DNA of 64,000 nucleotides from NCBI GenBank assembly GCA_902520495.1, contig CABYNW010000003.1, positions 7,645 through 71,644 of the forward strand, given 5' to 3'. How positions within the stretch are numbered: the first letter of the stretch is position 1; each line of letters opens with the position of its first letter. The DNA comes from an uncultured SAR86 cluster bacterium (GTDB lineage: Bacteria; Pseudomonadota; Gammaproteobacteria; Magnimaribacterales; D2472). The notes beneath the pieces are model-generated. The model saw only the letters and a list, made by a program, of their open reading frames with translations. It searched no databases and was not told where the DNA came from. The position numbers were made by a program, and so were the translations under genes. This document shows positions 34,169 through 52,907 of the stretch, piece after piece.

Positions 34169-34170
34169 AA

Positions 34171-34956
34171 TCAATCCCAGTTAGGTTTTCTTTTTTCTAA
34201 AAATGCTGCAATACCTTCTTTGGCATCTCTTCCTTCAAAACATTTTGCAATTTGTTCTTGCAAATATGGTAATGCCTCATTAAAACTTTTGCTATCTTGT
34301 TTTTCATATGCTTCTAGACCAAATCGCATAGTCTCAGGAGCTAAACTAGCCAGCTCTTCTGCTAAAGTATTTACAGTCCTGTCTATATCTTTTACATCAA
34401 CTGATTTATTAATTAAACCCCAGCTCTTAGCTTTACTGGCACCTATTGGTTGCCCTCTCATAATAAAATCAAGTCCAGCTCTTTTTGGCATTACTCTAAA
34501 TAGACCAGCCATAACCATAAATGGCCATAAACCTCTATGGATTTCAGGAGCTGAAAATTTTGCATCTTTTACAGCTATTGCATGTGTTGCATTTGTTACT
34601 ATGAGAAGGGCACCTGCAAGAACAGACCCCTGAATTTTACATATTACTGGTTTATATAGATGCCTTAAAGATAGACTAATATCATCCTTGCCTTCTAGCT
34701 TAGGAACATTTGATTCTGATTTTGCCCTAGTAAGATCAGCGCCTGCACAAAAAATATCTCCTTCAGCTGCAATAATCACTACTCTGATAGAATGCTCTTG
34801 TTTTGCATAGGCTAAGGCATAATTTAATTCATTCATCATGACATTATTTAATGCATTCTTCTTTTCAGGCCTATTAAGGGTTATAGTCATAATGTTATTT
34901 TCTATATCTAGTTTAGTGGCTTGAAAATCTAAACCTTCTAAAGATAGTTTTTTCAT
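34171..34956 (-). CDS. Enoyl-CoA hydratase/isomerase family (AtuE/LiuC-like context)
   Basis: TLNRPEKKNAL, FCAGADL, PEIHRG, DAKEGIAAFLEKRKPNW. Confidence 0.88.
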   Translation of the reverse strand: MKKLSLEGLDFQATKLDIENNIMTITLNRPEKKNALNNVMMNELNYALAYAKQEHSIRVVIIAAEGDIFCAGADLTRAKSESNVPKLEGKDDISLSLRHLYKPVICKIQGSVLAGALLIVTNATHAIAVKDAKFSAPEIHRGLWPFMVMAGLFRVMPKRAGLDFIMRGQPIGASKAKSWGLINKSVDVKDIDRTVNTLAEELASLAPETMRFGLEAYEKQDSKSFNEALPYLQEQIAKCFEGRDAKEGIAAFLEKRKPNWD

Positions 34957-36732: not shown

Positions 36733-37344
36733 TTAGTTCCTTAATTTAATGCCATTTAAGATTATGCTGGTTATTGAATTTGCTGACTCTTCTGGAGATG
36801 ATTCACTCAGTTTATTTTTTTCCTTTATAAATTCCCTTCCGATTCCACCAAGTAAAATTGAGAACGCTTTTGAATCTATATCTTGTATTTCCTTAGCCTT
36901 GATGGATTGGTTTAAAAGCTCTTCCGTTAAGTTCGTAATAAAATCTGCATGATAATCAACAACTGATTCCAACCTTTTTATTTTTTCGATATCTTTAAAA
37001 AACATATTAAATTTTGGGCCTACAACCTGATTGACCATATATAGGTATTTTTCTAATTTTTCTAATGGCGACTTAACTTCAGATATCGACTCTAAAGCAT
37101 ATTTTCCATGTTTTCTTAAAATACTGTCAGTAATCATTATAATTAATTCCTCTTTACTAGGAGCAATTTCATATAAAGTTCTTAAAGATATTTTCAGATT
37201 TGATGCTATTTGAGACATTGTTAGATCAGGAACCCCTTTCTCTAGCATTTTTTCTAAATCTTCAATAATTTCATGATGTCTTTTTGTGAAAGCTTCTTGC
37301 CTTTTAGGATTTAAATTTTTTATATAATTGAAATGCAACATCAT
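36733..37344 (-). CDS. TetR/AcrR-family regulator embedded in Atu-like operon
   Basis: HTH LTMSQIASNLKISLRTLYEIAPSKEEL; ATGA overlap with upstream gene. Confidence 0.88.
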   Translation of the reverse strand: MMLHFNYIKNLNPKRQEAFTKRHHEIIEDLEKMLEKGVPDLTMSQIASNLKISLRTLYEIAPSKEELIIMITDSILRKHGKYALESISEVKSPLEKLEKYLYMVNQVVGPKFNMFFKDIEKIKRLESVVDYHADFITNLTEELLNQSIKAKEIQDIDSKAFSILLGGIGREFIKEKNKLSESSPEESANSITSIILNGIKLRN

Positions 37345-39266
37345 TTATTTTTAATAACCATTAAGAGGGCGCCATTTTCAACTTGATCATTATGTTTTAT
37401 AAATAACTCATCAATAACTCCGTCCTCAATAGCTTTTACAGTATGTTCCATTTTCATGGCCTCTAATACCACAAGAGTATCTCCTTTCTTAATTTTACTT
37501 CCGACTTTAACTTTGAGATCAATTACTTTTCCTGGCATGGGAGCAATCAGCCCACCATCCTTAACTTCTTGCCCAATGGTCTTAAACCTAGGTAATATAG
37601 TTAACAAGATATCCCCCCATGGGCCATGAACTACAAGTTTTTCATCCTTCTTGGTAATTTTAGAAAAAAATCTTCTTTCCTCTATTTCTATATCTATCCC
37701 AAACTTACTCCACTTAATGACTTTTACATTAATACTTGGATTTACAGTAAATGAACCATCTCTATTAGATTTATATTCAACTGATATTTCATTTGAATTA
37801 AATTGAAAGCTAATTTTTTGTTGGGGTAATCTAGAATTTGTCCAACCTGATTGAATTCCTTTTAATATAAGAGCATTATTTCTATTTTCTCCCTGAATCC
37901 ATAGGGTTGCAGCAATTGCTGCTAGAGACTGTTCTTTATCAGTCAATTCTATTGATCTTTTTGGTTTAGCTATATCTATAAAGTCAGAAGTTGTATTGCC
38001 TTTATGAAAATGCTTAGATCTTAAACATGCAATAAGGAAATCTCTATTAGTCGTAATTCCTCCTATATGAAGCGATTGAAGGGCTAAAGCTAATTTATTG
38101 GCTGCATCAGTTCTATTTTTTCCTTTTGCGATTACTTTAGCTAGCATAGGGTCAAAATCAGTACCTATTATTGACCCTTGTTTTACTCCTGTATCCCATC
38201 TAGCGTCTATGTTATCGTCAACCTCATAAGCAATGAGTGTTCCTGTAGCTGGCAAAAAATCTTTTGCAGGATCTTCTGCATATAATCTTGCTTCAATTGA
38301 GGATCCATTCCAAGTAATGTCATCCTGGCTATAACCTAAAGCCTCACCTCTTGCAATTCTTAATTGTTCATATACTAAATCCTTATTTGTAATCTCTTCG
38401 GTAACAGGATGCTCTACTTGTAATCTAGTATTAACTTCTAAAAACCAAAATTCGCCTGTTTTATCATCGACTAAAAATTCTACTGTTCCAGCTGACTCAT
38501 ATTTAAGTTTTTTAGCCATTTTTATTGCGGCATTACCCATAGCCATTCGCATATTTTCATCGACTCTAGGGGATGGAGATTCTTCAATAATTTTTTGATG
38601 TCTTCTTTGAATAGAACATTCTCTTTCGCCTAAATGAACAATATTTCCATGCGAGTCACCAAGAATTTGAATTTCAATATGTCTTGAAGAGGCCACGTAT
38701 CTTTCAATAAAGATTCTGTCATCACCAAATCCAGCTTTTGCCTCTCTCTTAGCACTTGTTATGGAGTCTTTTAGATCTTTCTTTGATTCAACAATTCGCA
38801 TACCTTTACCACCACCACCAGCTGCAGCTTTAATAAGCAGAGGATAACCAACTTTATTAGCTTTTGATGGTTCAGTTGTCATCGGCAGGGTAGGGACTCC
38901 AGCTTTATCAGCAATCTCTTTTGCTTTTAATTTATCACCCATCGAAGTTATAACTTTAGAGCTGGGACCAACCCAGATCAAACCTGCTTTAATAACATCT
39001 CTTGAGAATTTCGCATTTTCTGACAAAAACCCATATCCAGGATGGACTGCTTGAGCACCTGTTTTAATCGCTGCTTCAATAATTTCTTTTCCATTAAGAT
39101 AGGTATCAGTAAGTTTAATTGCTTCATCGGCGAATTTAACAAAAGGAGATTCAGAATCTGCATCTGTGTATACTGCAACACAGGAAATACCCATTCCATG
39201 AGCAGTTTTCATTATCCTGCAAGCAATTTCGCCTCTATTTGCAATAAGCAATTTATGATATGTCAT
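37341..39266 (-). CDS. Biotin-dependent acyl-CoA carboxylase alpha subunit (biotin carboxylase + BCCP; AtuF/MccA-like)
   Basis: LIANRGEIA, HPGYGFLSEN, GGGGKGMR, RECSIQRRHQK, EVNTRLQVEH, EAMKME biotin Lys. Confidence 0.94.
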   Translation of the reverse strand: MTYHKLLIANRGEIACRIMKTAHGMGISCVAVYTDADSESPFVKFADEAIKLTDTYLNGKEIIEAAIKTGAQAVHPGYGFLSENAKFSRDVIKAGLIWVGPSSKVITSMGDKLKAKEIADKAGVPTLPMTTEPSKANKVGYPLLIKAAAGGGGKGMRIVESKKDLKDSITSAKREAKAGFGDDRIFIERYVASSRHIEIQILGDSHGNIVHLGERECSIQRRHQKIIEESPSPRVDENMRMAMGNAAIKMAKKLKYESAGTVEFLVDDKTGEFWFLEVNTRLQVEHPVTEEITNKDLVYEQLRIARGEALGYSQDDITWNGSSIEARLYAEDPAKDFLPATGTLIAYEVDDNIDARWDTGVKQGSIIGTDFDPMLAKVIAKGKNRTDAANKLALALQSLHIGGITTNRDFLIACLRSKHFHKGNTTSDFIDIAKPKRSIELTDKEQSLAAIAATLWIQGENRNNALILKGIQSGWTNSRLPQQKISFQFNSNEISVEYKSNRDGSFTVNPSINVKVIKWSKFGIDIEIEERRFFSKITKKDEKLVVHGPWGDILLTILPRFKTIGQEVKDGGLIAPMPGKVIDLKVKVGSKIKKGDTLVVLEAMKMEHTVKAIEDGVIDELFIKHNDQVENGALLMVIKNK

Positions 39267-40918
39267 AGCCTATAGACTCCATAGCCTGGTGCACCCTCAA
39301 TATTTCTTCCATTCACAAGCGATAAACAAATTCCTAATACTGTTCTAGTATCTCTAGGATCAATAATGCCATCATCACTTATTGCTCCAGTTGCTCTTAA
39401 AGCAAGGGATCCTTCCTCTTGCCATTTCTCTGCAAAAGCTACCATTTGAGCATCCTCTTTCTCATCAAATTTCTCTCCTTTTCTAGCAGCCCTTGCTCTT
39501 CTTACAATTGACATAACACCAGCAATTTGTTTTGGTCCCATGACTGCAATTTTCGCAGTTGGCCATAGGAAGGTAAATTTATTATCAAATGCTCTTCCTG
39601 ACATCGCATATGTTCCAGCCCCGTAACTTGCTCCTAAGATTATTGTTATGTGAGGAACTGTCGAATTTGATACTGAGTTTAAAAATTGAGCACCTTTTTT
39701 AATTTGACCATCTCTTTCATAATCCTTCCCAACTACAAAACCTGTTATATTCTGTAAGAAAATAATTGGAATATCTATTTGATTACAAAGTTGAACAAAA
39801 TGAGCTCCTTTAGATGCAGTATCGGGAAATATAGGACCATTATTACCAATTATGCCAATTGTATAGCCATGAATAGAGGCAAAGCCACATACCATTGTTG
39901 GGCCGAATAAAGGTTTAAATTCTTCAAATCTAGAACCATCAGTTATTCTTCCAATGACCTCTCTTACATCAAATGGCTTCTTAAGATCTGAATCAACTAA
40001 GCCCAATAAATCTTCTGAATCAAGAATTGGATTGTCTGGAGCTAGTTTTGGTTTTTTTCCTTCCTTTCTCCAATTTAAATGAGAAACGACTTCTCTCCCT
40101 ATTCTCAGGGCATCCATCTCATCTTCAGCTAAATAGTCAGCTAGGCCAGAAACTTCTGCATGCATTTGACCGCCTCCCAAGCTTTCATCATCTGACTCTT
40201 CGCCAGTAGCCATTTTTACCAATGGTGGCCCACCCAAAAACACTTTTGACTGTTTTTTTATAAATATATTGTAATCTGACATGCCTGGTTGATAAGCTCC
40301 TCCGGCGGTAGATGATCCAAATACTAGAGATATTGTGGGTATTCTTAACTTAGATAATTCAGTAACATCATAAAAAGTCCTTCCTGATTCAGCAAAATGT
40401 CCTGCTCCTAAGATTGAACCTCTTGCAGCATCTTTCCCCTTTCCTCCACCCATTCTAAGATCTCCGCCAGATGACTCCACAAATTGCACATATGGTATTT
40501 TGTTCACTCTTGCTATTTCCATGGCGCGTGTCCATTTTTTTGCAGAATAAGTGTGCATTGCTCCAGCTAGAACTGTTGGATCGTTTCCAAAAATTACGCA
40601 TTCTGTACCAGCAACAATACCAACACCTGCAACTGCTCCTCCTCCCACTGGATAATCAGATCCATATGCGGCTAATGAACTTATTTCTAGAAAAGGTGAG
40701 TCAGGGTCTATAAAATTTGCAATCCTGCTTCTTATTGACATTTTACCTCTTGAGGCAAGTCTTTCATGATGATGCATTCCACCACCTAGTTCTGCAAAGT
40801 CGAGCAAGTCCTCTATCTCACTAAGTTTCTCAAGCATATCGTTTTTATTTTTTTGATATTCTTTAGACTTCGTATTTATATTACTTTTAATTGTTTGCGC
40901 TATATTTCTTTGCTTCAT
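39263..40918 (-). CDS. Acyl-CoA carboxylase beta (carboxyltransferase) subunit (AtuC/MccB-like)
   Basis: GSSTAGGAY, FLGGPPLVKMATGE, FLQNITGF, SYGAGTYAM, DDGIIDPRDTR. Confidence 0.93.
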   Translation of the reverse strand: MKQRNIAQTIKSNINTKSKEYQKNKNDMLEKLSEIEDLLDFAELGGGMHHHERLASRGKMSIRSRIANFIDPDSPFLEISSLAAYGSDYPVGGGAVAGVGIVAGTECVIFGNDPTVLAGAMHTYSAKKWTRAMEIARVNKIPYVQFVESSGGDLRMGGGKGKDAARGSILGAGHFAESGRTFYDVTELSKLRIPTISLVFGSSTAGGAYQPGMSDYNIFIKKQSKVFLGGPPLVKMATGEESDDESLGGGQMHAEVSGLADYLAEDEMDALRIGREVVSHLNWRKEGKKPKLAPDNPILDSEDLLGLVDSDLKKPFDVREVIGRITDGSRFEEFKPLFGPTMVCGFASIHGYTIGIIGNNGPIFPDTASKGAHFVQLCNQIDIPIIFLQNITGFVVGKDYERDGQIKKGAQFLNSVSNSTVPHITIILGASYGAGTYAMSGRAFDNKFTFLWPTAKIAVMGPKQIAGVMSIVRRARAARKGEKFDEKEDAQMVAFAEKWQEEGSLALRATGAISDDGIIDPRDTRTVLGICLSLVNGRNIEGAPGYGVYRL

Positions 40919-40936
40919 AATAAAATTTATTTTTTA

Positions 40937-40964
40937 TGGTAATATTATACATCTAATATTACCA
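40937..40964. promoter_or_regulatory. Perfect 11+11-bp inverted repeat, probable repressor operator of the Atu-like operon
   Basis: TGGTAATATTA-TACATC-TAATATTACCA, 18 bp upstream of the carboxyltransferase start codon. Confidence 0.65.
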
Positions 40965-41005
40965 ATTATAAAGATAATTAAAAATATAGAAAAATAATTT
41001 TTTTT

Positions 41006-42700
41006 CTAAGCCGTTTTCTGCTCCTTTAAGCCAAGTTCCTCAATACTAATTTCTCTCATCTTATATTTTTGAACTTTTCCAGTTACAGTCATTGGAAAAT
41101 CATCTACAAATCTAATATATCTTGGCACTTTATAGTGAGCTATCTTGCCTTTACAAAATTCTTTTATATCTTCTTCAGAGGTATTTTTCCCTTCTTTTAA
41201 ACTAATCCATGCAATTATTTCTTCGCCATATTTAGGATCAGGCACACCAGTTACTTGAACTGCTTCTATATCTTGATGAGTCATTAAATAGTCTTCTATT
41301 TCTACTGGATAAACATTTTCTCCTCCACGTACTATCATATCTTTAATACGTCCTACAATATTTACATAGCCGTCCTCATCCATAACAGCACTATCTCCTG
41401 TATGCATCCAGCCATTTGAATCTATTGCATTGGCAGTACCTTCAGGATTTTCCCAATAACCTAACATAACGGAATAGCCCCTTGTACATAATTCACCAGT
41501 TTCTCCAATAGGGCATGTTTTCCCAGATTCTGAATCAATAATTTTTACTTGTACATGAGGATGAACACTCCCAACTGTGCTTACTCGTTTCTCCATTGGA
41601 GAATCAATTTTTGTTTGAAAACTTACAGGACTTGTTTCTGTCATTCCATATGCTATTTCAACATCTTTCATATGCATTAATTCAACAACCTGTTTCATTG
41701 TTTCGATTGGACAGGGTGAGCCAGCCATCAGACCAGTTCTCAAAGTTTTCAGGTTATATTCTTCAAAATTAGGCAATGCAAGTTCTGCAATGAACATTGT
41801 TGGGACACCATATAAAGCAGAAGCCTGTTCATCCTGAACTGCTTTTAATGCAGCATCAGGTTCAAAGCCTTCACTAGGATAAATTGCACAAGCACCATGA
41901 GTAAGACATGCAAGATTAGCTAAGACCATTCCAAAACAATGATAAAGAGGTACGGGAACTACAAGCCTATCCTTTTCTGTAAAATTCATAGTTACTCCAG
42001 TAAAGTAACCATTATTAAGAATATTATGATGACTTAAAGTTGCTCCTTTTGGAAATCCGGTTGTTCCACTTGTATATTGAATGTTAATTGCATCATCTAT
42101 ATCTTGATTATCTGTTCGGTCTTGTAATTTTTTATCATTAATTTCTTTCCCTAAAGTTATAAAATCTTTCCAATTATAAATACCCTTTATCTTAGATGAG
42201 GTCATTGAGATAATTGTTGTTAAATTCTTAAATTTACTTGATTGAATTTGACCTTGTATGGCATCTTTTATTTCAGGCATAATTTCACAAATCATTGATT
42301 CATAATCTGAAGTTTTAAATTGATTTTGGAAAACTAGACCTTTGCAGCCTGATTGACCCAAAACATATTCTAATTCATGAGAGCGATATGCAGGGTTTAT
42401 AGTGACTAAAATAACACCTGCCTTAGCTGCTGCATATTGTGTCAATAACCACTCTGCATTATTAGAAGACCAAATTCCGATTCGATCACCTTTTTTCAGA
42501 CCAGCGCTTATTAAAGCTTTTGCCAATTCATTAACTTTTATAGCTAATTCAGCATATGTAAATCTAATATTTTGATGAACAGAAATCAGCGCCTCTCTAT
42601 CAGAGAACTTATTAGAAATATTATTAAATACTTGACCTATAGTATTTCCCAGTAAGGGCCTGTCAGATGCACCACTTGCATAACTTAATTTATTAGACAT
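41006..42700 (-). CDS. AMP-binding acyl-CoA synthetase (ACSF2/YngI-like)
   Basis: [52 protein letters not shown]. Confidence 0.92.
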
Positions 42701-43994
42701 TCTTCATTTCTCCAAAATAATTTATTCCCTTTAGCATAAAGAAGATTCCGATGGGACCAATTAAAACAGATACTAAGGCTAAAGATTTAGCTATAGCAGT
42801 AGGATCTTGAAATATAAAATCTGTACTAGATGCTACTAAAAAAGGACCTAAAACCAATCCAAAAACACTAGTTACAACTACATAAATACCAGTTATAACT
42901 CCTCTTATTCTGTTTGGAGAGACTATTACCATGGCGCTTGATGTTCCTGCTAATGGTAGAGTTACAAAAAAACTAGCAAGCGTCACAAATATTAAAGCAA
43001 TATTAACATTTGGTTGAAAAGGTAACATAATCAAACTTAAAGATGCCATTGAAATACCAAAAATTGCTAACTTAAAATGTGGCGCTCTAATTTTATTATT
43101 AGACATTAACCTTAATACAATAGGGCCTGACAAAACCCCTGCAGAGCCAGCCAACATTGCTATTAATCCATATACCCGTCCTGATTGAATTAAATCCCAT
43201 TCATACACTCTAAGCAACATAGTAGGGACCCATGATTGAAGTCCATAAAGCAGAATTATTAAACATGAATTTCCTATAATAATTGCACCATAGACTTGCC
43301 AATTTTTTTGAATAAATTCAGCAATCTTTTTAAATGAGGGAACTTCTTTTGAATCTATCTCTGGAATTTTACGCTTTGGCTCTTTAATTGTTAAAAATAA
43401 ACAAACTACAAGAATTCCTGGTAAACCAACTGCAATAAATGTTAGTTGCCATGGAGCAACCTCTCCAATTAAAGGCAGAACTAAATTACTATCCATTTGA
43501 GAAGTCCAATCAAGCACTTGAGCTCCAAATATCATCGCAATTCCGGCTCCTAGGTATGGACCTAAAAGATAAATACTCATAGGATATGCAATTTTATCTG
43601 AATCAAAATAATCACCTAAAATAGAAATTGAACCTGGATGTACGGTTGACTCACCTGCGCCAATACCCATTCTGGCAATAAACATACTGACATAATTCTT
43701 AGAAAATCCACATGCTATTGTTGCTACACTCCATACCAATAGACCAACAATCATTACAGTAATCCTATGAGACTTATCTACTAGCCTTCCTATTGGAATA
43801 CATAATCCTACATAAGTTAAAACAAAAGCTAATCCTTGCAATGCACTTATTTGGGTATCTGTGATATTTAAATCATTTTGTATTGGAACAACTAATAAAT
43901 TTAAAACTTGACGATCAATAAAAGAAAATGTGAAACCAATTAATAAAATAAAGGCTACATACCAGCCGTAAATATTATATGTTTTGCTATGCAT
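42693..43994 (-). CDS. MFS transporter (spinster/ACS-like)
   Basis: [20 protein letters not shown] motif [11 protein letters not shown]; about 12 TM segments. Confidence 0.9.
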
Positions 43995-44005
43995 ATATAG
44001 ACTGA

Positions 44006-44854
44006 TTATTTTTTAAGATCATCAAAAATCTCTGGAAGCTCTTGATCACCATGCCCATGATTTTTTATATCACTTGTCATCATGGCATACATTTCACTTG
44101 TTACATGATGAGAAAAATCATCAGTAAAAATTCGTTTCCAGTATCTTCTGGCTACTGCTGCTGTTACTCTTCGAGTAACACGATCCACTTTCATCATATC
44201 GCCTGCAAGTTCCCATGCTCTATCAAGAAGTTTGTCTTTCGAATGTACTTCATTAACAACACCCCATTCTAAAGCCTGCTTTGCATCAAATGATTCTGCA
44301 GTATACATAAACCAGTTAGCTCTTTTTAATCCAAGTAACTTTTGAAAAACTAAAAATTGCCCATCTCCTGGTACCAACCCAACTTTAAGATGACCTTCAA
44401 AAAATTTTGTGGTGTCTGCACATAGGGTAATATCACATAAAAGTGGGAATTCAGTATGAAATCCAGGACCATTTATAACTGAAATAATTGGAACGTCAAT
44501 ATTCCATAACAAGTTTTCACATAATTTATGAGCATCTAGATATTCCCAGTCATAGTTTTCTTTTCTAAATGTTTTATTATTTTTTTCTATCTCAGCCCAA
44601 CTTTCTTTATCAAATTCTCTTAACCAGAAATCTCCTGTTCCGGTAAGAATTATCACTTCATTTTTTCTATCTGCGCCTATGATAGGAAATATTTGAGGAA
44701 GAGCTCTATGTAATTCTTTACTCCATTTAGCTTCTTTGCCATCTGTATGCATTCTTATTTCTAAAATACCTTTTTCACGCTTAAACGCAAAAAAGTCTTT
44801 AAAAAGTTCTTGATATTCCTCCAATTGCATATCGTTAACTGTATTTAAAGGCAT
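44006..44854 (-). CDS. Crotonase-superfamily beta-diketone hydrolase, 6-oxocamphor hydrolase (CamK)-like
   Basis: MHTDGKEAKWSKELH, ILTGTG, NGPGFHTE, HLKVGLVPGDG, NEV..LLDRAWELA parallel OCH motifs as recalled, with the same W-x4-H and H-x8-D spacing; GGAG RBS. Confidence 0.8.
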   Translation of the reverse strand: MPLNTVNDMQLEEYQELFKDFFAFKREKGILEIRMHTDGKEAKWSKELHRALPQIFPIIGADRKNEVIILTGTGDFWLREFDKESWAEIEKNNKTFRKENYDWEYLDAHKLCENLLWNIDVPIISVINGPGFHTEFPLLCDITLCADTTKFFEGHLKVGLVPGDGQFLVFQKLLGLKRANWFMYTAESFDAKQALEWGVVNEVHSKDKLLDRAWELAGDMMKVDRVTRRVTAAVARRYWKRIFTDDFSHHVTSEMYAMMTSDIKNHGHGDQELPEIFDDLKK

Positions 44855-44882
44855 GTTATATCTCCAAAAAATTTTTATAAAC

Positions 44883-44896
44883 TGAGAACGGTCTCA
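44883..44896. promoter_or_regulatory. Palindromic operator-like site TGAGA-N4-TCTCA (site 1)
   Basis: TGAGA-ACGG-TCTCA between divergent hydrolase and TetR genes, adjacent to a TATAAT. Confidence 0.7.
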
Positions 44897-44953
44897 AATC
44901 ATACTATAATTTCTAATTTTAAAAAACAATAATTAAAGATAATATATCCAAAT

Positions 44954-45568
44954 ATGAATAAAAACTCAGTCAAAATTGCAGTTAAAGATAAAACTAGAGA
45001 AGATATTATTAATTCTGCAATAAAGGTTATAGCAAAATCTGGAAGAGATGCTGCTTCAATTCTTGAGATTACAAAAGTTGCAAAGGTGGCTAATGGAACT
45101 TTTTATTATCATTTTAAGAATAAAGAAGAATTGCTAGATACGATAGGTGAAAAAATTCTTATCGAAATAGTTGACTCATATGAAATAGATTGGTCTTCAG
45201 CAAAAGACAATCCAGCAGTATTGTTTGCTCATGCAACAAAAGTGAACTTAATTAAGTGCTCTCAAGACCCCTTATTATTAAAGGTAATAATTGATGCATT
45301 TCATATACGTGGTAAAGTTCCTGTGATTTTAAGGGGTTATAACAAGAGCTTGATTGCGCATATAGAATTTGGGATATCAAAGAAAAAATATGATATAAAA
45401 ATTGATGATAACTTGCTTGCAAATATGCAATCAATCAATCGAAATGCTTTGATAATGATATCTCAAGGAAAAAATATTGATAAAACAATACAGCAGGCTA
45501 TCGAGGCTAAATTAAGAATATTAGGAATTTCATCTAAAGAGGCAAGAAAAATTTCTATTGACTCATAA
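44954..45568 (+). CDS. TetR/AcrR-family regulator
   Basis: TREDIINSA, ASILEITKVAKVANGTFYYHFKNKEEL HTH. Confidence 0.92.
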   Translation: MNKNSVKIAVKDKTREDIINSAIKVIAKSGRDAASILEITKVAKVANGTFYYHFKNKEELLDTIGEKILIEIVDSYEIDWSSAKDNPAVLFAHATKVNLIKCSQDPLLLKVIIDAFHIRGKVPVILRGYNKSLIAHIEFGISKKKYDIKIDDNLLANMQSINRNALIMISQGKNIDKTIQQAIEAKLRILGISSKEARKISIDS

Positions 45569-45595
45569 AAAAGGGCTATCATAAATATAGCCCTT
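45567..45595 (-). terminator. Rho-independent terminator for TonB receptor (possibly bidirectional)
   Basis: AAGGGCTAT-N7-ATAGCCCTT stem preceded on + strand by an A-run (U-tract on minus strand), between convergent genes. Confidence 0.7.
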
Positions 45596-45632
45596 ATCAT
45601 TTATAAACTTTGCAGTCTAGGGGATACGCAGT

Positions 45633-47918
45633 TTAAAAATCTTTACTAAATTGAACAGCAATACTTCTGGTTCTATCAAGAATAGAGAATTGTCCAGTCT
45701 GATTTGTATAGTTTGTTTGCTGATTCCAATTACTTGTGTATTCGTCTGTTAAGTTTTTACCTAAGATAGAAATCTTCCAATCATCTTTAGAGAATTCAAC
45801 ACGAGCGTCAATTTTACTAAAACCATCCTCTTTACTATTTGGATCATAATCAGTGTTATGCCAGACATCATCTGTCCAGTAAATTGAAATGGATGATTTC
45901 CTCATCATTCCATTTGACATTTCGTTCTCAGATGTCAATGAAAATAGACCACTATTATCAGCTGCATATAACAAAGGAAGGCCTGTATAATCACAGCTTG
46001 ATGTTCCTGCAACTGGAGTTACACCAACAGCACAGGTACCACCAGTATAATCATCATAAGTTGCGTCTAATTTTGTAAAAGATAGATCTGCAATAACTGA
46101 ATCAGATAGAAGATAGCTAAGCTCTACTTCAAAACCTTTATTTGTGCTAGGTACATTTGAGATTGTATTATATGGAGCTCCTCCATCTGGGGGATATATA
46201 TATGAACTTAACTGATTGCCATCATATTTTGAATTAAAATAATTCATACTAGCTTTCATTTTTTCATTACTTGTTTTATATCCGATTTCATATGCATCTA
46301 CTCCTTCAGATTCATAAGCACCATTATTTGCTAGAGCAGTTCCTAGTGCTTCATAACCTCCGGCTTTAAAACCATCAGAGTAAGTAGCATAAAACATAGA
46401 ATTCTCATCTTTAAAATATTGCAGCATTAATGATGGAGTTGTTGCACTTTCTGAGTATGAATTTGCTTGAAGTGTTCCATCAGCAATTGATCCCTTATGA
46501 GTAAATTTAATATTAAAATCATCAAATGTATAACCAGTTCCATTTATACCCAATGTTGTAGTTGTTCTAATATAATCTTTTTCTACATCAGTGTGCCTCA
46601 CACCTGCTGTAAGATGAAGTTTTTCTGATATGTAAAATGTTCTAGTTGCAAAAATCGACATTGTTGTGTCATCAATTTCCATTGGTCTTATTAAGGCTAG
46701 GTTTGCTGTACCAATTCCAAGGGAAGCACCCCATTCAGCAACGTAGTACCTTCCAATATTCATAGTATTTGCTGTTTCAGTATTTTGATAGTAAAAACCT
46801 ATCATCCATTGACCGTTATCAGTCGCCTCACTTGTTAATCTTAGTTCTTGTGAAAACTGTTCTGATGTTTCGTCATGAAGCCAATGAAAGAAATCTCTAG
46901 AACTGTAATCAGATTCACCTGGTATTTCAGCATCAATTTTCTGATTTGAAGTAATTGATGTTAATTCACCCATTCCTATTGTTTTCTTAATTTCAAGTAC
47001 AATAGAGTCTGAATCTAAGTGACCAAACGCGCCCTCTGAGCCACTATATCTATCATCAAACAAACCTTCAAAATCAGGAGCACCTAAACCAAGTTTACAT
47101 GTGCTAATTATGAAAGTGATATCAGCACCACTTCCATCTGCCAGACAATTAGTTTGCTGCCAACCCATTCCAGAGGAAGTATCCAATCTCCCAAGGTCAA
47201 TTTTAAGCTTGGCCTCCATATCATCACTTGAATCCCAAACCAAAGTTGTTCTCATATTAAAACCATCTTTATTAGGATAGTTATCTCCAGCAGGATTTGT
47301 GTTCTTTAACCATCCATCCATTTCATGATATTGAAATGCAAATCTTGCTTTTAAGCCATCAGAAACTCTTCCACTTCTAATTGCAGCAATAGTTTTTTCA
47401 CCATGACTTCCAAAAGTAGCTGAAATACTAGACTCACTTTCATCTGTTGGAACTTTGGTTATAAAACTTAAAGCTCCACCAATAGCATTATTTCCAAAAT
47501 AAGTTGTTTGTGGACCTTTTAATATTTCAACTCTCTCCATATCAAGTAAAACACCAGCAGTAGTCCAAGATCTTCCTTGATAGACACCATCTACAAATTG
47601 ACCAACTGACTGGTCAAATGACTGATTTGGTCCAGCCCCAACACCACGCATATAGACTTTGTTACTAAAAGTGCCTTTACTAATATTTATTCCAGGTGTT
47701 CTATCTGAAATATCAAACATCGTCATGATATTATTTTCAGCCATGATTTCACCTGTAAGAATATCAATTGAGATAGGTGTATCTAGTTCACTTTGTTCTT
47801 TTAAAGTTGCAGTAACCACAACTTCTTCAATAGATTGTTGAGCATTTATAGTTGTAAAACTAAACATTAACGCTAAAGACATTAATCCATTAAAGAAATA
47901 GCTTTTATTTATCTTCAT
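45633..47918 (-). CDS. TonB-dependent outer-membrane receptor
   Basis: Signal peptide, EEVVVTA TonB box, RVEILKGPQTTYFGNNAIGG plug motif, GFKAGG, C-terminal Phe; GGGGG RBS favours ATG 47918. Confidence 0.94.
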   Translation of the reverse strand: MKINKSYFFNGLMSLALMFSFTTINAQQSIEEVVVTATLKEQSELDTPISIDILTGEIMAENNIMTMFDISDRTPGINISKGTFSNKVYMRGVGAGPNQSFDQSVGQFVDGVYQGRSWTTAGVLLDMERVEILKGPQTTYFGNNAIGGALSFITKVPTDESESSISATFGSHGEKTIAAIRSGRVSDGLKARFAFQYHEMDGWLKNTNPAGDNYPNKDGFNMRTTLVWDSSDDMEAKLKIDLGRLDTSSGMGWQQTNCLADGSGADITFIISTCKLGLGAPDFEGLFDDRYSGSEGAFGHLDSDSIVLEIKKTIGMGELTSITSNQKIDAEIPGESDYSSRDFFHWLHDETSEQFSQELRLTSEATDNGQWMIGFYYQNTETANTMNIGRYYVAEWGASLGIGTANLALIRPMEIDDTTMSIFATRTFYISEKLHLTAGVRHTDVEKDYIRTTTTLGINGTGYTFDDFNIKFTHKGSIADGTLQANSYSESATTPSLMLQYFKDENSMFYATYSDGFKAGGYEALGTALANNGAYESEGVDAYEIGYKTSNEKMKASMNYFNSKYDGNQLSSYIYPPDGGAPYNTISNVPSTNKGFEVELSYLLSDSVIADLSFTKLDATYDDYTGGTCAVGVTPVAGTSSCDYTGLPLLYAADNSGLFSLTSENEMSNGMMRKSSISIYWTDDVWHNTDYDPNSKEDGFSKIDARVEFSKDDWKISILGKNLTDEYTSNWNQQTNYTNQTGQFSILDRTRSIAVQFSKDF

Positions 47919-47972
47919 TTTTCCCCCCAAGAGAAATTTTTTATAATAATATATTTTTAATATTATTCTGAT

Positions 47973-48061
47973 TGAGACATAGCTTAACTCTGAGACATAT
48001 CTCAGTTTTAAAGGTATACTTTCATGAACTTTATGTCAACAAAAAACTGAGAAATGTCTCA
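47973..48061. promoter_or_regulatory. Three further copies of TGAGA-N4-TCTCA operator-like site
   Basis: 47973-47986 TGAGACATAGCTTA (2 mismatches), 47991-48004 TGAGACATATCTCA (perfect arms), 48048-48061 TGAGAAATGTCTCA (perfect arms, overlaps esterase ATG). Confidence 0.75.
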
Positions 48062-49091
48062 AATAATTAAATCTTATAAAAAGTTTCTTATTGGCAATTT
48101 TTTTAATATTCCTGTTTGGGTGCTAAGAATAATTTTTCCTCAAGTCAGGACTAAGATAAGAGAATCTAAAATTGATTTTCAATCGTATGCTTTTATAAAG
48201 TTAAATCCAAAAAGCACTCTACATACAATTAAAGAAAAAGATTTACCAAAAATTAGAAAGGTAATAGAGCACAATAAGATAACTAGCAAGCTATCTGTAA
48301 AATCTAAAGACTTAGTTGAAACAAAAGATCACTCTATATTTATAAAACATAAAAATGATCAAATGTTGCTAAGAGAATATATACCTAAGAATATAGGCTC
48401 AGACAAAATAATTTTATTTTTTCATGGCGGAGGCTGGACCATTGATTCGGTCAATACTTATGATGATATGGTTAAATATTTCTCTGATTATTTAAATATA
48501 AAAATATTTTCATTTGAATACAGTCTATCTCCTGAGGAAAAGTTTCCAAATGCTTTAAAGGAGGCTGAAGAAATATATAAGTGGCTTATTAATAGTGGAA
48601 CTCCATCAAACAAAATCAGCCTATCTGGTGACAGTGCTGGCGCTCATATGGTTGCATCCTTATCTTATAAATTAGCTAAACAGGGTTCAGAAATGCCTAA
48701 CAGCTTATTGATGATATATCCTCCTTGTGATCCACAATTTAAATCTGAGTCAATAAACCTTTTTAAGGATGAATATTTTTTATTACATTCTGACTTATCT
48801 TGGTTTTGGAATAAATTTAGAAAAAATCAGACCGATGAAGATAACCCAATGTTTAATCTTTTAAAATTTGACTTAACCATAGCATTTCCACCTACTATTT
48901 TAGTAACCGGAGGCTTTGATCCTATATGTGATGAAGGGACACAATACGCAAACCTATTAAAAAAACAAGGAACAAATATTAAAATATTAAATTATCCTAC
49001 TTTATTTCATAACTTTGCATTCATGACAAAGTTACATACTGCTAGAAAGGCTGTTAATAATTTTTTAGATGAATATAAAAAGATAGTCTAA
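48054..49091 (+). CDS. Alpha/beta hydrolase, HSL-family esterase/lipase
   Basis: HGGG oxyanion motif, PEEKFP, GDSAG nucleophile Ser, DPICDEG, HNF. Confidence 0.9.
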   Translation: MSQIIKSYKKFLIGNFFNIPVWVLRIIFPQVRTKIRESKIDFQSYAFIKLNPKSTLHTIKEKDLPKIRKVIEHNKITSKLSVKSKDLVETKDHSIFIKHKNDQMLLREYIPKNIGSDKIILFFHGGGWTIDSVNTYDDMVKYFSDYLNIKIFSFEYSLSPEEKFPNALKEAEEIYKWLINSGTPSNKISLSGDSAGAHMVASLSYKLAKQGSEMPNSLLMIYPPCDPQFKSESINLFKDEYFLLHSDLSWFWNKFRKNQTDEDNPMFNLLKFDLTIAFPPTILVTGGFDPICDEGTQYANLLKKQGTNIKILNYPTLFHNFAFMTKLHTARKAVNNFLDEYKKIV

Positions 49092-49109
49092 AATAGTCAT
49101 TAATTTAAT

Positions 49110-49730
49110 ATGATTAAAATATACGCAACTGAAAATTCTAGAGCTGTCCGGCCTATATGGACTGCTGAGGAAATGGGTTTGGAGTACGATTTAATTATGA
49201 TGCCGTTTCCTCCAAGAGTTTTTATGAAAGAGTACTTAGATATAAATATTCTTGGGACCATACCATTTATGATTGACGGGAATATTGAAATGACTGAGTC
49301 AGTTGCAATTTGTCAATATTTAGTTGAAAAATATGGACCAACTGATCTTCAAGTCAAGCCAAATGAAAAAGATTATCCAGTATATTTAAATTGGCTATTC
49401 CATTCTGATGCAACATTAACATTTCCACAAACAGTGGTCCTAAGATATAAGTTTCAGGAACCTGGTGTTGCAGATGCTGCAGTTGAAGGTTATAGCAAGT
49501 GGTTTGTTTCAAGGTTAAAGCTTTTAGAAAAATCTTTAGATGGTAAAGATTATTTATGCTCAGATCGTTTTACATTAGCAGATATATGTGTAAGTTATGC
49601 AATAAATTTAGCTTCAGTTCTAGATATCAAGCAAGCCTTCAAACCAAATATTACTAGATGGAGTGAGAATTTATTTTCAAGACCAGCTTTTATTAAAAGT
49701 AAAGATTATAGATATGAGCCAAATGAATAG
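49110..49730 (+). CDS. Glutathione S-transferase family
   Basis: SRAVRPIWTAEE, GTIP, ESVAICQYL, FTLADI. Confidence 0.9.
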   Translation: MIKIYATENSRAVRPIWTAEEMGLEYDLIMMPFPPRVFMKEYLDINILGTIPFMIDGNIEMTESVAICQYLVEKYGPTDLQVKPNEKDYPVYLNWLFHSDATLTFPQTVVLRYKFQEPGVADAAVEGYSKWFVSRLKLLEKSLDGKDYLCSDRFTLADICVSYAINLASVLDIKQAFKPNITRWSENLFSRPAFIKSKDYRYEPNE

Positions 49731-50970
49731 ATTAATTGTAAATATTTTCATTATTTTTTTAGCTATTAATTTGCATGCTAATACAACAAATCATATACAA
49801 ACCATATATTTAGGATCTGGATGCTTTTGGGGGGCTGAAAAAGGTTATGAAAGCTTGAAGGGGGTTATCGATGCAGAGTCTGGTTATGCAAATGGATATG
49901 GAGTTAAACCTAATTACAGGTCAATAATTCAATTTAAAAACAAATACAATGAAAATAATTTTGCTGAGGTTGTGAAAGTTACATTCAATAGCAATGCAAT
50001 AACTTTAGAAGAGATTTTGAAACATTTTTTTGAAAACCATGACCCAACTCAACACAACAGACAAGGTAATGATGTTGGAACTCAATATAGATCAACAATT
50101 CTTTTTGAAAACAAATCTCAAAAAAATCTCGCAATCAAAATAATGGATATTTATCAAGATTTATTAAATGCTGCAGGATATGGAAAATTAAAAACAAAAC
50201 TCGAACCGTTAGATAATTTTTATCTTGCAGAAGATTACCATCAAGATTATTTAAAAAAGAATCCAAATGGATATTGCCCAGATCTTTCTACAGGCATTGT
50301 TTTTAATCAATCAGAAAAAGATTTTCATGACAATACAAGCTTACTTTCTGGAAAACATATTTTAATTTTAGATTCACAAGACTATTGTCCTTACTGTGAG
50401 AAACTTAAAAATGATGTAACAGATAAATATAAGGGTAGTATTCCTCTAACATATCGATCCTCAGATCAGCTTCATGGATTAAGTATTGAATCCCCAACCT
50501 GGGCAACACCTTCTCTAATTTTATTAGAAGATGGAAAAGAAATTTTTAGTTATCAGGGATATATTGAATCTAAAGATTTTTATAAAATTTTAGGTAGGTT
50601 TAAATTAGGCAATACTGAGGCATATGATGTTGCTTTTAATAAAGGAACTGATTCAAGATTTTGTAAAGAATATGAAATTTTTAAGAATACTCCCGAAGGA
50701 GTTTTTATAGACAAGTTAAGCGGAGAACCTTTATTTGATACTAAAGATAGATTTGTATCTCGCTCAGGTTGGCTTTCTTTTACTAAACCAGTAGATGGCT
50801 CTGTATATGAATTGCCCGATAATAGTTTTGGAATGAGAAGAACGGAAATTAGATCTGTCTCATCAGATATTCACCTAGGTCATGTTTTTGATGATGGTCC
50901 AAATGGAATGCCAAGATACTGTATTAATGCAACAGTTTTAGAATTTAAAGCTAGAAAGCAAACTATTTAA
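49723..50970 (+). CDS. msrAB: Exported MsrA-thioredoxin-like-MsrB fusion methionine sulfoxide reductase
   Basis: Signal-like N-terminus; MsrA GCFWG, QGNDVGTQYRS, AEDYHQDY, GYC; central CPYC and WATP Trx fold; MsrB HLGHVF, RYCIN. Confidence 0.88.
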   Translation: MNRLIVNIFIIFLAINLHANTTNHIQTIYLGSGCFWGAEKGYESLKGVIDAESGYANGYGVKPNYRSIIQFKNKYNENNFAEVVKVTFNSNAITLEEILKHFFENHDPTQHNRQGNDVGTQYRSTILFENKSQKNLAIKIMDIYQDLLNAAGYGKLKTKLEPLDNFYLAEDYHQDYLKKNPNGYCPDLSTGIVFNQSEKDFHDNTSLLSGKHILILDSQDYCPYCEKLKNDVTDKYKGSIPLTYRSSDQLHGLSIESPTWATPSLILLEDGKEIFSYQGYIESKDFYKILGRFKLGNTEAYDVAFNKGTDSRFCKEYEIFKNTPEGVFIDKLSGEPLFDTKDRFVSRSGWLSFTKPVDGSVYELPDNSFGMRRTEIRSVSSDIHLGHVFDDGPNGMPRYCINATVLEFKARKQTI

Positions 50971-52907
50971 TAAGTAATTCCATACCCATATTCATAAGTT
51001 GGGTTAATAGAGTCGTCAGGCAAATCCTCTTTTTGATTTAGAACAGATTCCATTGATAAAGGTATTTCAAAAGGAAGTTTCCCGGATGGATTAAATTCTC
51101 CAAAAATCCCTTCAAATATAATTTCATCTAAAACTCCAAAGGTACCAATAAGGGCAGATGAATGATTTTTAATATCTTCTAAGATTGCAGGTCTATTTAA
51201 ATCTACAACGATAACCAAATCTTGAATTTGAGAATAGTTTTTAATTTTTGATTTTATTTCATCATTAAAATTTAAATCTCCGTTTGGGAACAAAGTACTT
51301 AGAAAATTATCGAATAATCTATTTAAACCAGATTGCTGATTACCATTAAAGACAGTATGAATATACATTATGATTACATCAGCATCAGCTGGACTATCAG
51401 TTACAGTGCCATATTTTCTAGCAATGTCCTTATTCAGTCCGTCTACAAATATTTTAGTATTTTTTTTAAGAGGTAAAAGTTCCTTATTTTCAAGCAAAAC
51501 TATAGATTTTCTTTGTGCCTCAAGTCCTGCTTCAACATTTTCTTTAGTATTAACCCTAAATTTAACTTCATTTTCATTTACATAAGGGTTATCAAATAAA
51601 CCTAATTCAAATTTATTTATTAAAATTCTTTTTACTGATCTATTAATTCTTTCTTCAGAAATCTTATTTTCTGAAACTAGCTTAATAAGATGAGAGGTAT
51701 CTATTTCACCACCATATTGATCAATACCTGCATTGATAGATTTTTCATATCTTTCCTCAATCGACAGAGAATCTACTCCCCAATGTCTCCCAGTTATTAT
51801 CCCCCAATCTGAACAAATAACACCTTTAAAGCCGAGTTCTTCTCTTAATAAGTCTGTAAGAATATATTTATTAAATGCCATAGCCACATCATCATTTGTT
51901 TGTGAAACAGGTATTCCATAATAAGGCATTATTACTTTAAGATTGTTTTCAATTGCGCTTATAAATGGAATCAAATGATAGTCAAAATTATTACCTGGAT
52001 ATATTTGATTTCTACCACTAAATAAATGTGGATCGAGCCCATTTTCCTGCGGACCGCCTCCTGGAAAGTGTTTTACCATCGTATGCACACTTTGATTATT
52101 AATTTCATTACCCTGAAATCCATTCATATAAGCTAATGTCATCTTATTTGACAAGTCTGCATTAGAACCAAAAGTTCCAAAGTTTCGAGCCCAGCGTGGC
52201 TCTGTTGCTAAATCAGACATTGGATGAAGAGCTGTTCTAATTCCTACTGCAAGATATTCTTGTTTTGCAATTTCACCAAAATTTTTAACGATTGAAGGAT
52301 TATTTGTTGCTGCAAATCCTAGTTGAGAAGGCCATTTTGAAAAACCATCAACTGAAAAAGAAGCAACTCCTCCTCCTTTTGGAACTTCATGAATAGGATC
52401 AGAGCTTATAGTTATTGGAATTCCCAATCTTGTTCTTGAGGCTATCCTTTGAAATTTATTTATTTTGATAGCTAGTTCCTCAGGACTAGGATTTCCGTAA
52501 AGATTAAAATGAGAGATGTTTTTAAAAAGAATTTGTGATTCGGGTAGCTTACGACCTCTTATTAATACCTCATAAATAAACATTGGTAAATCAGCATTAA
52601 GAGTGAAGGGTGGATGAAACATTTGACCAACCTTTTCTTCTAAATACATTTGGTTAATAAGATCATCAGCTCTAATATTTGAATTAAGCCTATGATCCTC
52701 ATATATGTCTAACTTATTATTTTTATTTAAATCACGAAAAATTTTCTCATCAATATTTAACATATTAACTTCGTCATAAAGAGAGTTTTTTATTCTTATT
52801 TTCTCTGCAGGCTTAATAGTATTAAAAACAACCCATACCATACATACTATTAATAGAAATAAAAAAATTGCTAAAGATTTTTTTAAAAAGGTAGAGATGT
52901 TCAACAA
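50967..52907 (-). CDS. GH3 beta-glucosidase-like glycosidase with N-terminal membrane anchor
   Basis: TRLGIP, DLATEPRWAR, KHFPGGG, CSDWG nucleophile, PSGKLPF; start (TTG) uncertain. Confidence 0.9.
   Translation of the reverse strand: MLNISTFLKKSLAIFLFLLIVCMVWVVFNTIKPAEKIRIKNSLYDEVNMLNIDEKIFRDLNKNNKLDIYEDHRLNSNIRADDLINQMYLEEKVGQMFHPPFTLNADLPMFIYEVLIRGRKLPESQILFKNISHFNLYGNPSPEELAIKINKFQRIASRTRLGIPITISSDPIHEVPKGGGVASFSVDGFSKWPSQLGFAATNNPSIVKNFGEIAKQEYLAVGIRTALHPMSDLATEPRWARNFGTFGSNADLSNKMTLAYMNGFQGNEINNQSVHTMVKHFPGGGPQENGLDPHLFSGRNQIYPGNNFDYHLIPFISAIENNLKVIMPYYGIPVSQTNDDVAMAFNKYILTDLLREELGFKGVICSDWGIITGRHWGVDSLSIEERYEKSINAGIDQYGGEIDTSHLIKLVSENKISEERINRSVKRILINKFELGLFDNPYVNENEVKFRVNTKENVEAGLEAQRKSIVLLENKELLPLKKNTKIFVDGLNKDIARKYGTVTDSPADADVIIMYIHTVFNGNQQSGLNRLFDNFLSTLFPNGDLNFNDEIKSKIKNYSQIQDLVIVVDLNRPAILEDIKNHSSALIGTFGVLDEIIFEGIFGEFNPSGKLPFEIPLSMESVLNQKEDLPDDSINPTYEYGYGITY

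What the first reader, a model, noticed from the sequence alone, without database searches (positions are those of the whole stretch)
44879..48064. De novo operator motif AAACTGAGA-N3-GTCTCA repeated in both divergent promoters around the TetR
Seen: AAACTGAGAACGGTCTCAAAT (44879-44899) and AAACTGAGAAATGTCTCAAAT (48044-48064) match at 19/21 positions. The reverse complement of 47988-48008 is AAACTGAGATATGTCTCAGAG, and a degenerate copy lies at 47973-47986. The core is the palindrome TGAGA-N4-TCTCA. Sites lie just upstream of the hydrolase/TetR pair, upstream of the TonB receptor, and over the esterase start codon. Established: TetR repressors bind short palindromes near their own and target promoters. 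Inference: this defines the TetR regulon and places the esterase and receptor in it.
Basis: partly seen in the sequence, partly recalled or inferred. Interest (0 to 1): 0.7.

Follow-up and report, generated by a model that had tools for sequence, protein, structure and literature searches.

The report
TetR operators on a catabolic island
Three copies of a 14-base palindrome sit on the predicted promoters of a six-gene nutrient uptake and breakdown island in a marine bacterium, and they are likely the binding sites of the island's own TetR repressor: an ordinary kind of gene switch with a motif I did not find in print.

Summary
TGAGA-N4-TCTCA occurs exactly three times in the 1.09-Mb genome, all here (44883, 47991, 48048). 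The 'degenerate copy' at 47973 is only a half-site.

The core lies upstream of the TetR in 20 of 22 orthologous loci and in 0 of 71 other TetR loci. It moves with the target genes when they are rearranged. It recurs before two 29-31%-identical alphaproteobacterial TetRs that share the recognition helix but have other neighbours. The nearest solved relative is RolR, whose operator has the same TGA-N8-TCA geometry, but RolR's resorcinol-binding residues are not kept.

All three sites lie in an 8-kb island (acyl-CoA ligase, MFS, beta-diketone hydrolase, TetR, TonB receptor, esterase). The island is missing from four near-complete relatives. Best reading: a local, ligand-released repressor regulon for catabolising a (probably cyclic) 1,3-diketone or its ester. 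Binding and ligand are untested.

Two extras in relatives: in one genome the promoter between the paired operators is inverted, and one clade has copied the operator-promoter cassette in front of an acyl-CoA dehydrogenase. New member of a known kind.

The parts
44883..44896 (.). O1: operator palindrome in the 99-bp hydrolase/TetR divergent gap. It covers the predicted -35 of tetR and the predicted start of the hydrolase transcript.
47991..48004 (.). O2: operator palindrome just downstream of the predicted -10 of the receptor promoter. It holds the predicted -35 of the esterase promoter.
48048..48061 (.). O3: operator palindrome 9 bp upstream of the receptor -35, over the esterase ATG. Also kept in loci where no esterase ATG lies in it (L041, L042, L107).
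48011..48039 (-). Predicted receptor promoter, TTGACA-17-TACCTT, enclosed by O2/O3, which form 19-bp 95% inverted repeats. This segment is inverted in genome G133.
44901..44929 (-). Predicted hydrolase-operon promoter (TTGTTT-17-TAGTAT). With O1 it forms the cassette copied before an acyl-CoA dehydrogenase in G020, G033 and G133.
   Evidence: promoter assignment is inference
47973..47981 (+). Half-site only (direct repeat of O2's left arm); not counted as an operator
44954..45568 (+). TetR-family regulator, 204 aa, RolR-like (TetR_C_40) subfamily; likely cognate repressor
44006..44854 (-). Crotonase-fold beta-diketone hydrolase (6-oxocamphor hydrolase/ABDH family); H49, H155, D164, E254 match the catalytic residues
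42693..43994 (-). MFS transporter, 11 bp after the hydrolase stop
41006..42700 (-). Acyl-CoA ligase (PRK12583, above cut-off), overlapping the MFS gene. Carries its own exact site where it has been relocated (L041).
45633..47930 (-). TonB-dependent receptor
48054..49091 (+). Hormone-sensitive-lipase-family esterase (HGGG, GDSAG)
45571..45595 (.). Terminator-like hairpin on both strands between the converging tetR and receptor genes

Best explanation
The three palindromes are likely operators for dimers of the adjacent TetR (44954-45568), which would repress the promoters of its own six-gene island until a small-molecule inducer releases it. O1 would block both tetR (autoregulation) and the hydrolase-MFS-CoA ligase operon. 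O2 and O3 clamp the receptor promoter, and the overlapping esterase promoter, from both sides. On induction the receptor and MFS would import a compound, the esterase would free it, the beta-diketone hydrolase would open a 1,3-diketone by retro-Claisen cleavage, and the ligase would activate the keto acid for the neighbouring beta-oxidation/carboxylase genes. Shown: the sites, their conservation, their tracking of this TetR, and the gene families. Inferred: binding, repression, promoter positions, operon structure, and the pathway and ligand (likely a cyclic or terpenoid 1,3-diketone, its ester, or its ring-opened acid or CoA ester).
For: All 3 exact genome matches are in the island's two divergent gaps. 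Exact core within 300 bp upstream of the TetR in 20 of 22 orthologous loci (50-99% identity), against 0 of 71 scored other-TetR loci even at one mismatch. The 2 exceptions (L042, L107) are rearranged and carry the sites before receptor>hydrolase>MFS; L041 has an extra exact site before its relocated CoA ligase. Two alphaproteobacterial TetRs at 29-31% identity with the same VANGTFYY helix, but dehydrogenase/oxidoreductase neighbours, have the core upstream (0 and 1 mismatch); three similar-distance homologues with other helices lack it. RolR is the top PDB match by sequence (4e-10), profile (6e-21) and fold. The rolO oligo in the supplement of PMC10415137 holds two 14-bp palindromes, TGAAC-N4-GTTCA and TGAAT-N4-ATTCA, the same TGA-N8-TCA geometry. 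Four near-complete relatives lack the island and have no exact core and no intergenic near-match in the fetched region, although they keep the neighbouring TetR. TetRs under 200 bp from a divergent gene usually regulate it (abstract of PMC3511530); here the gap is 99 bp.
Against: No binding or expression test was possible. The 22 orthologues are kin, not independent; about five divergence levels are sampled. L042 and L107 have no good site before their own tetR (best 3 mismatches), so autoregulation is not universal. 3 of 5 distant full-length homologues lack the core, and the 2 that have it were found by patterns for that same helix. Promoter-like hits in 44700-48300 are no more frequent than in shuffles (18 vs 18.6), and the predicted tetR -10 spacing is not kept in the 78-80% group. 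The bare core occurs about once per genome by chance (30 matches in 34 genus genomes without the island; reversed control 34 in 41). In this lineage O3 overlaps coding sequence. G033 has the sites but its TetR was not found (73% complete).
Confidence: 0.88

Rival explanations
1. Another factor binds the palindromes, such as the second TetR at 36733-37344 or a global regulator.
For: The genome has 4 TetR_N proteins, one of them 7 kb away. Binding is untested.
Against: The second TetR is in 34 of 41 genus genomes, and the motif cluster is missing in four island-less genomes that keep it. A different palindrome before its operon is present once in 32 of 41 genomes. A global factor would leave sites elsewhere; the next-best genome hit scores 16 against 25-27 bits and lies in an ORF.
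Confidence: 0.05
2. O2/O3 are mainly recombination arms of an invertible promoter (phase-variation switch), and the palindromes are kept for that.
For: O2 and O3 form 19-bp 95% inverted repeats around a 33-bp promoter core. In G133 the 43-bp spacer is inverted: 39 of 43 identical to G020 when reversed, 18 of 43 as is.
Against: Only 1 of 16 loci covering the region is inverted. Contigs of 4 DNA runs list no strand-changing joint (contigs drop rare forms and the tables were cut). No serine recombinase in 4 of 4 genomes and only two tyrosine recombinases, on other contigs, in each. The rival does not explain O1 or the single sites in L041.
Confidence: 0.04
3. The sites are conserved promoter or RNA elements (the half-site doubling as a -35, or a small hairpin), or the TetR acts as an activator.
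For: The left half-sites serve as predicted -35 boxes at 44882 and 47992.
Against: Both halves are kept while the 4 central bases vary, as for a protein-bound dyad. The stem is only 5 bp and no Rfam family matches in 40000-50000. Sites over predicted start points fit repression, not activation.
Confidence: 0.03

Closest known systems
RolR-rolO of Corynebacterium glutamicum (PDB 3AQS/3AQT)
   Same: Best PDB match by sequence, profile and fold. TetR_C_40-type C-terminal domain. Local repressor of an aromatic-catabolism cluster (passages of PMC10415137). 14-bp TGA-N8-TCA palindromes.
   Different: About 25% identity. Inner half-site GA instead of AC/AT. Single palindromes at separate places rather than a tandem pair. 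The resorcinol residues D149, R148, R145 align to H136, A135, S132, and only D94 is kept (D79); D149A abolishes resorcinol binding in PMC3086911. The target genes differ.
6-oxocamphor hydrolase (1O8U) and Anabaena beta-diketone hydrolase (2J5G/2J5S)
   Same: E 3e-45 and 4e-43, against 8e-19 for the next crotonase. ABDH catalytic H43, H144, D153, E243 (PMC3584854) align to H49, H155, D164, E254.
   Different: Substrate unknown. Here it sits with a TonB receptor, MFS, esterase and CoA ligase; no camphor oxygenase is in the island.
AtuR/atu acyclic terpene utilisation regulon (Pseudomonas)
   Same: A TetR repressor on inverted repeats overlapping divergent promoters of lipid-catabolic genes (passages of bioRxiv 10.1101/2025.09.24.678253). 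AtuA and carboxylase genes lie next to the island.
   Different: The AtuR site given there is an unrelated 24-bp repeat. The atu-like operon here has its own TetR and its own palindrome.
Invertible promoters (invertons)
   Same: A promoter between inverted repeats, seen in both orientations across genomes.
   Different: The repeats are the operators themselves. No invertase was found and no mixed population was seen.

Membership tests
TetR-family local repressor with palindromic operator | N-terminal TetR helix-turn-helix and all-helical ligand domain | tested here: met
   PF00440 44.3 bits, cut-off 24; 10 helices, pLDDT 86.6
TetR-family local repressor with palindromic operator | Palindrome conserved at its own and target promoters, co-occurring with the factor | tested here: met
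   20 of 22 vs 0 of 71
TetR-family local repressor with palindromic operator | Direct binding, repression and ligand release | not testable with these tools
   Needs EMSA, footprint or reporter
RolR-like (TetR_C_40) subfamily | Full-length similarity to RolR / PF21306 domain | tested here: met
   RolR ranks first. PF21306 hits 14 of 22 aligned members at E<=0.001, but not the window protein alone.
RolR proper (resorcinol sensor) | D94-R145-R148-D149 ligand motif | tested here: not met
   D79, S132, A135, H136 by both alignments (residues)
RolR proper (resorcinol sensor) | rolO sequence | tested here: not met
   Same TGA-N8-TCA frame, different inner bases and no tandem pair
Crotonase-fold beta-diketone hydrolase (OCH/ABDH) | Catalytic His/His/Asp/Glu set | tested here: met
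Crotonase-fold beta-diketone hydrolase (OCH/ABDH) | Retro-Claisen C-C cleavage activity | not testable with these tools
   Needs an enzyme assay
Invertible promoter (phase variation) | Promoter flanked by inverted repeats | tested here: met
Invertible promoter (phase variation) | Both orientations within one population | tested here: inconclusive
Invertible promoter (phase variation) | Dedicated site-specific recombinase | tested here: not met
   PF00239 in 0 of 4 genomes; two PF00589 genes each, none near the island; genomes 77-90% complete

The most novel reading that the evidence does not exclude
The paired operators double as recombination arms. The promoter between O2 and O3 flips without a dedicated invertase, and because the arms are palindromic operators, repression survives while the strong (TTGACA) and weak (GAGACA) promoters swap between the TonB receptor and the esterase. 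This would be a repressor-site-mediated, recurring expression switch on a surface receptor in a streamlined marine bacterium. That the G133 inversion is real as a one-off event is more likely (about 0.75).
Probability: 0.08. Interest if true: 0.7.

Novelty: new member of a known kind. Interest (0 to 1): 0.36.

Why it matters
It gives a testable operator and regulon for an uncharacterised RolR-like TetR subfamily, in an abundant streamlined marine bacterium with only four TetR genes found. It also points to regulated uptake and C-C hydrolysis of a 1,3-diketone-type carbon source in about one sixth of this genus; the TetR could serve as the sensor to find that compound. Relatives show two rarely caught steps of regulon rewiring: an inversion between operators, and a copied operator-promoter cassette that likely recruits new genes. 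The basic arrangement is textbook.

Tried and rejected
Distal regulon members in this genome: two weight-matrix scans found nothing near the three sites (next best 16-17 bits against 25-27). Single distal exact matches at G003:C3:31480 (in an ORF) and G163:C1:1652707 (in an ORF) were rejected as background; two in G028 were not examined.

Fourth site at 47973: rejected.

RNA contigs from 4 runs cover the receptor, hydrolase, MFS and ligase but not 48314-48987 (esterase). Contigs cannot show level, strand or ends, and DNA may be present, so this was not used as evidence. Two RNA contigs stop at 44881 and 44866, short of the predicted hydrolase start near 44894; they are different places, so not used.

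Recurrent inversion: not seen (inconclusive).

Wider spread of the TetR: none in 399 other scored genomes of the class at 1e-18 (one genome not scored), none in plasmids at 1e-12, and 1 weak hit without the core among 300 relatives of the L108 genome.

Rfam: no match.

Literature searches for the motif or regulon (listings only unless stated) showed no description of it. The original rolO paper (PMC3416628) is not held and was not seen. A recalled resemblance to the LiuQ motif could not be checked, because the passages of PMC5343134 give no motif. RegPrecise is not available, so 'not in print' is limited to these searches. Supplements of the AtuR preprint were not seen.

A steroid ring-A beta-diketone hydrolase was considered and rejected as another family (amidohydrolase 2; passages of PMC11780191).

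No earlier scan findings. No complex prediction was run.
Full report
OBSERVATION. The quoted sequences are at the stated coordinates, and the two 21-mers match at 19 positions. The exact core TGAGA-N4-TCTCA occurs three times in the window (44883, 47991, 48048). These are the only three in the whole 1.09-Mb assembly, where about 1.1 is expected. Among all 5-N(0-10)-5 palindromes that occur three times within 3.3 kb in this genome (132 clusters), it is the only one with two or more G/C per half. At one mismatch the window count is at chance (6 vs 3.85). The 'degenerate copy' at 47973 is a half-site scoring 4.0 bits against at least 19.3 for real sites, and it is seen only in the window and a 99% relative.

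SETTING. The runs that hold this DNA are marine; the genome is 32% GC. I did not test its taxonomy; 'SAR86-like' would be my inference. The genes are acyl-CoA ligase <- MFS <- crotonase-fold enzyme | TetR -> <- TonB receptor | esterase -> GST -> MsrAB. The crotonase's best PDB hits are the Anabaena beta-diketone hydrolase and 6-oxocamphor hydrolase (3e-45 and 4e-43; next family 8e-19). The four catalytic residues named in passages of PMC3584854 align to H49, H155, D164 and E254. The six genes 41006-49091 form an island: in four genomes 91-97% complete, the carboxyltransferase and GST genes flank each other directly and the fetched regions hold no exact core (two one-mismatch hits inside a coding region). 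The TetR was found in 6 of 139 genomes of the family, all in this genus of 41, and the hydrolase in 7 of 41; many of these genomes are incomplete.

CONSERVATION. An exact core lies within 300 bp upstream of the TetR in 20 of 22 orthologous loci (50-99% identity), against 0 of 71 scored loci of other TetRs even with one mismatch (4 more were too short and 4 gave no hit). The two exceptions, L042 and L107 (the latter a Pseudomonadales MAG), are rearranged. They carry the pair of sites before receptor>hydrolase>MFS and none before tetR. In L041 the ligase has moved and carries its own exact site. O2 is exact in 15 of 15 other loci that cover it; O3 is exact in 9 and has 1-2 mismatches in 6. It persists where no esterase start overlaps it. 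Two alphaproteobacterial TetRs at 29-31% identity (L108 Bradyrhizobium jicamae, L109) share the VANGTFYY helix, neighbour unrelated enzymes and have the core upstream. Three homologues at similar distance with other helices do not. L108 and L109 were found through helix patterns, and relatives are not independent. The bare core turns up about once per genome by chance, so lone distal hits were not counted.

WHICH FACTOR. The genome has four TetR_N genes. The neighbouring one (36733-37344) is in 34 of 41 genus genomes and goes with a different palindrome at 40937-40964, found once in 32 of 41. For the island's TetR, RolR ranks first by sequence, profile and predicted fold. A stored homologue falls among TetR_C_40 clusters. 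The rolO oligo in the supplement of PMC10415137 contains two 14-bp palindromes, TGAAC-N4-GTTCA and TGAAT-N4-ATTCA, the same frame as here. RolR's ligand motif (passages of PMC3086911) is not kept: D149, R148, R145 align to H136, A135, S132. It is RolR-like, not a resorcinol sensor.

MECHANISM (inferred). A receptor promoter TTGACA-17-TA(A/C)N(G/T)T on the minus strand keeps its spacing from the window to L041 and L042. O2 would cover its start point, and O3 lies just upstream of the -35. On the plus strand O2 supplies the predicted esterase -35 (47992-48020), and O1 the predicted tetR -35 (44882-44910). O1 also sits just after a predicted hydrolase -10. Consensus promoter hits alone are at chance level, so only the conserved one is well supported. 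These placements fit steric repression, released by an inducer, as is general for the family (abstract of PMC3511530). The likely pathway is import, ester hydrolysis, ring or chain cleavage of a 1,3-diketone, then CoA activation. The hand-over to the adjacent atu-like carboxylase/dehydrogenase operon, and the ligand, are guesses.

REWIRING IN RELATIVES. (a) O2 and O3 with their flanks are 19-bp, 95% inverted repeats around 33 bp. In G133 the 43-bp spacer is inverted (39 of 43 identical to G020 reversed, 18 of 43 direct), so TTGACA faces the esterase; this is 1 of 16 loci. No invertase candidate was found, and contigs of four DNA runs list no strand-changing joint (weak test). The repeats are short for an assembly flip, but an amplification chimera is not excluded. 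(b) G020, G033 and G133, a 100/100 clade, have a 94-bp gap before the acyl-CoA dehydrogenase orthologous to 32924-34174. It holds an exact core and a near copy of the O1 promoter cassette (55 of 64 identical to the window's). The other 27 of 30 genomes examined have gaps of 37 bp or less and no core (5 further hits had no locus). That is a derived gain, or a gain with later losses in G000 and G028.

KNOWN VERSUS NEW. It works like any divergent TetR operator system, closest to RolR-rolO; it fails membership of RolR proper. Eight literature searches showed no description of this motif or regulon, but the library lacks most subscription papers and the rolO paper. Verdict: real, well supported, new member of a known kind; interest 0.36. 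The boldest reading not excluded is an operator-armed invertible promoter (probability 0.08).

Noticed in passing
window 40937-40964: A second palindrome, TGGTAATAT-N10-ATATTACCA, upstream of the carboxyltransferase. Present exactly once in 32 of 41 genus genomes, reversed control 0; likely the operator of the TetR at 36733-37344.
   Followed up: partly
L026:12466-12536 (G133:C2:81465-81535): The promoter between the two operators is inverted relative to 15 other loci.
   Followed up: yes
L124:1473-1566, L113:1473-1566, L155 (G020, G133, G033): A copied operator-promoter cassette lies inside the atu-like operon before an acyl-CoA dehydrogenase; absent from the window, where the genes overlap at 34171-34174.
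   Followed up: yes
window 41006-49091: The island is inserted between the carboxyltransferase and GST. GST-MsrAB now start 18 bp after the esterase and may have lost their original promoter and come under the island's control.
   Followed up: partly
window 36733-40918: TetR, biotin carboxylase and carboxyltransferase are only 64-67% identical to those of island-less relatives, while flanking genes are about 80%; possibly replaced along with the island.
   Followed up: no
L108:9830-9890 and L109:9825-9870: Tandem TGAGA-type sites, the second overlapping a TTGACA box, before dehydrogenase / FAD-oxidoreductase genes in alphaproteobacteria; suggests a subfamily-wide motif.
   Followed up: partly
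L107:15778-18010: In the Pseudomonadales MAG two SnoaL-like proteins replace the esterase across from the receptor.
   Followed up: no
L026:3-1239: AtuA of G133 aligns in two pieces around residues 306-309, a possible frameshift.
   Followed up: no
window 50967-52907: The GH3 glycoside hydrolase is missing at this place in G020, G133, G033, G035 and L035.
   Followed up: no
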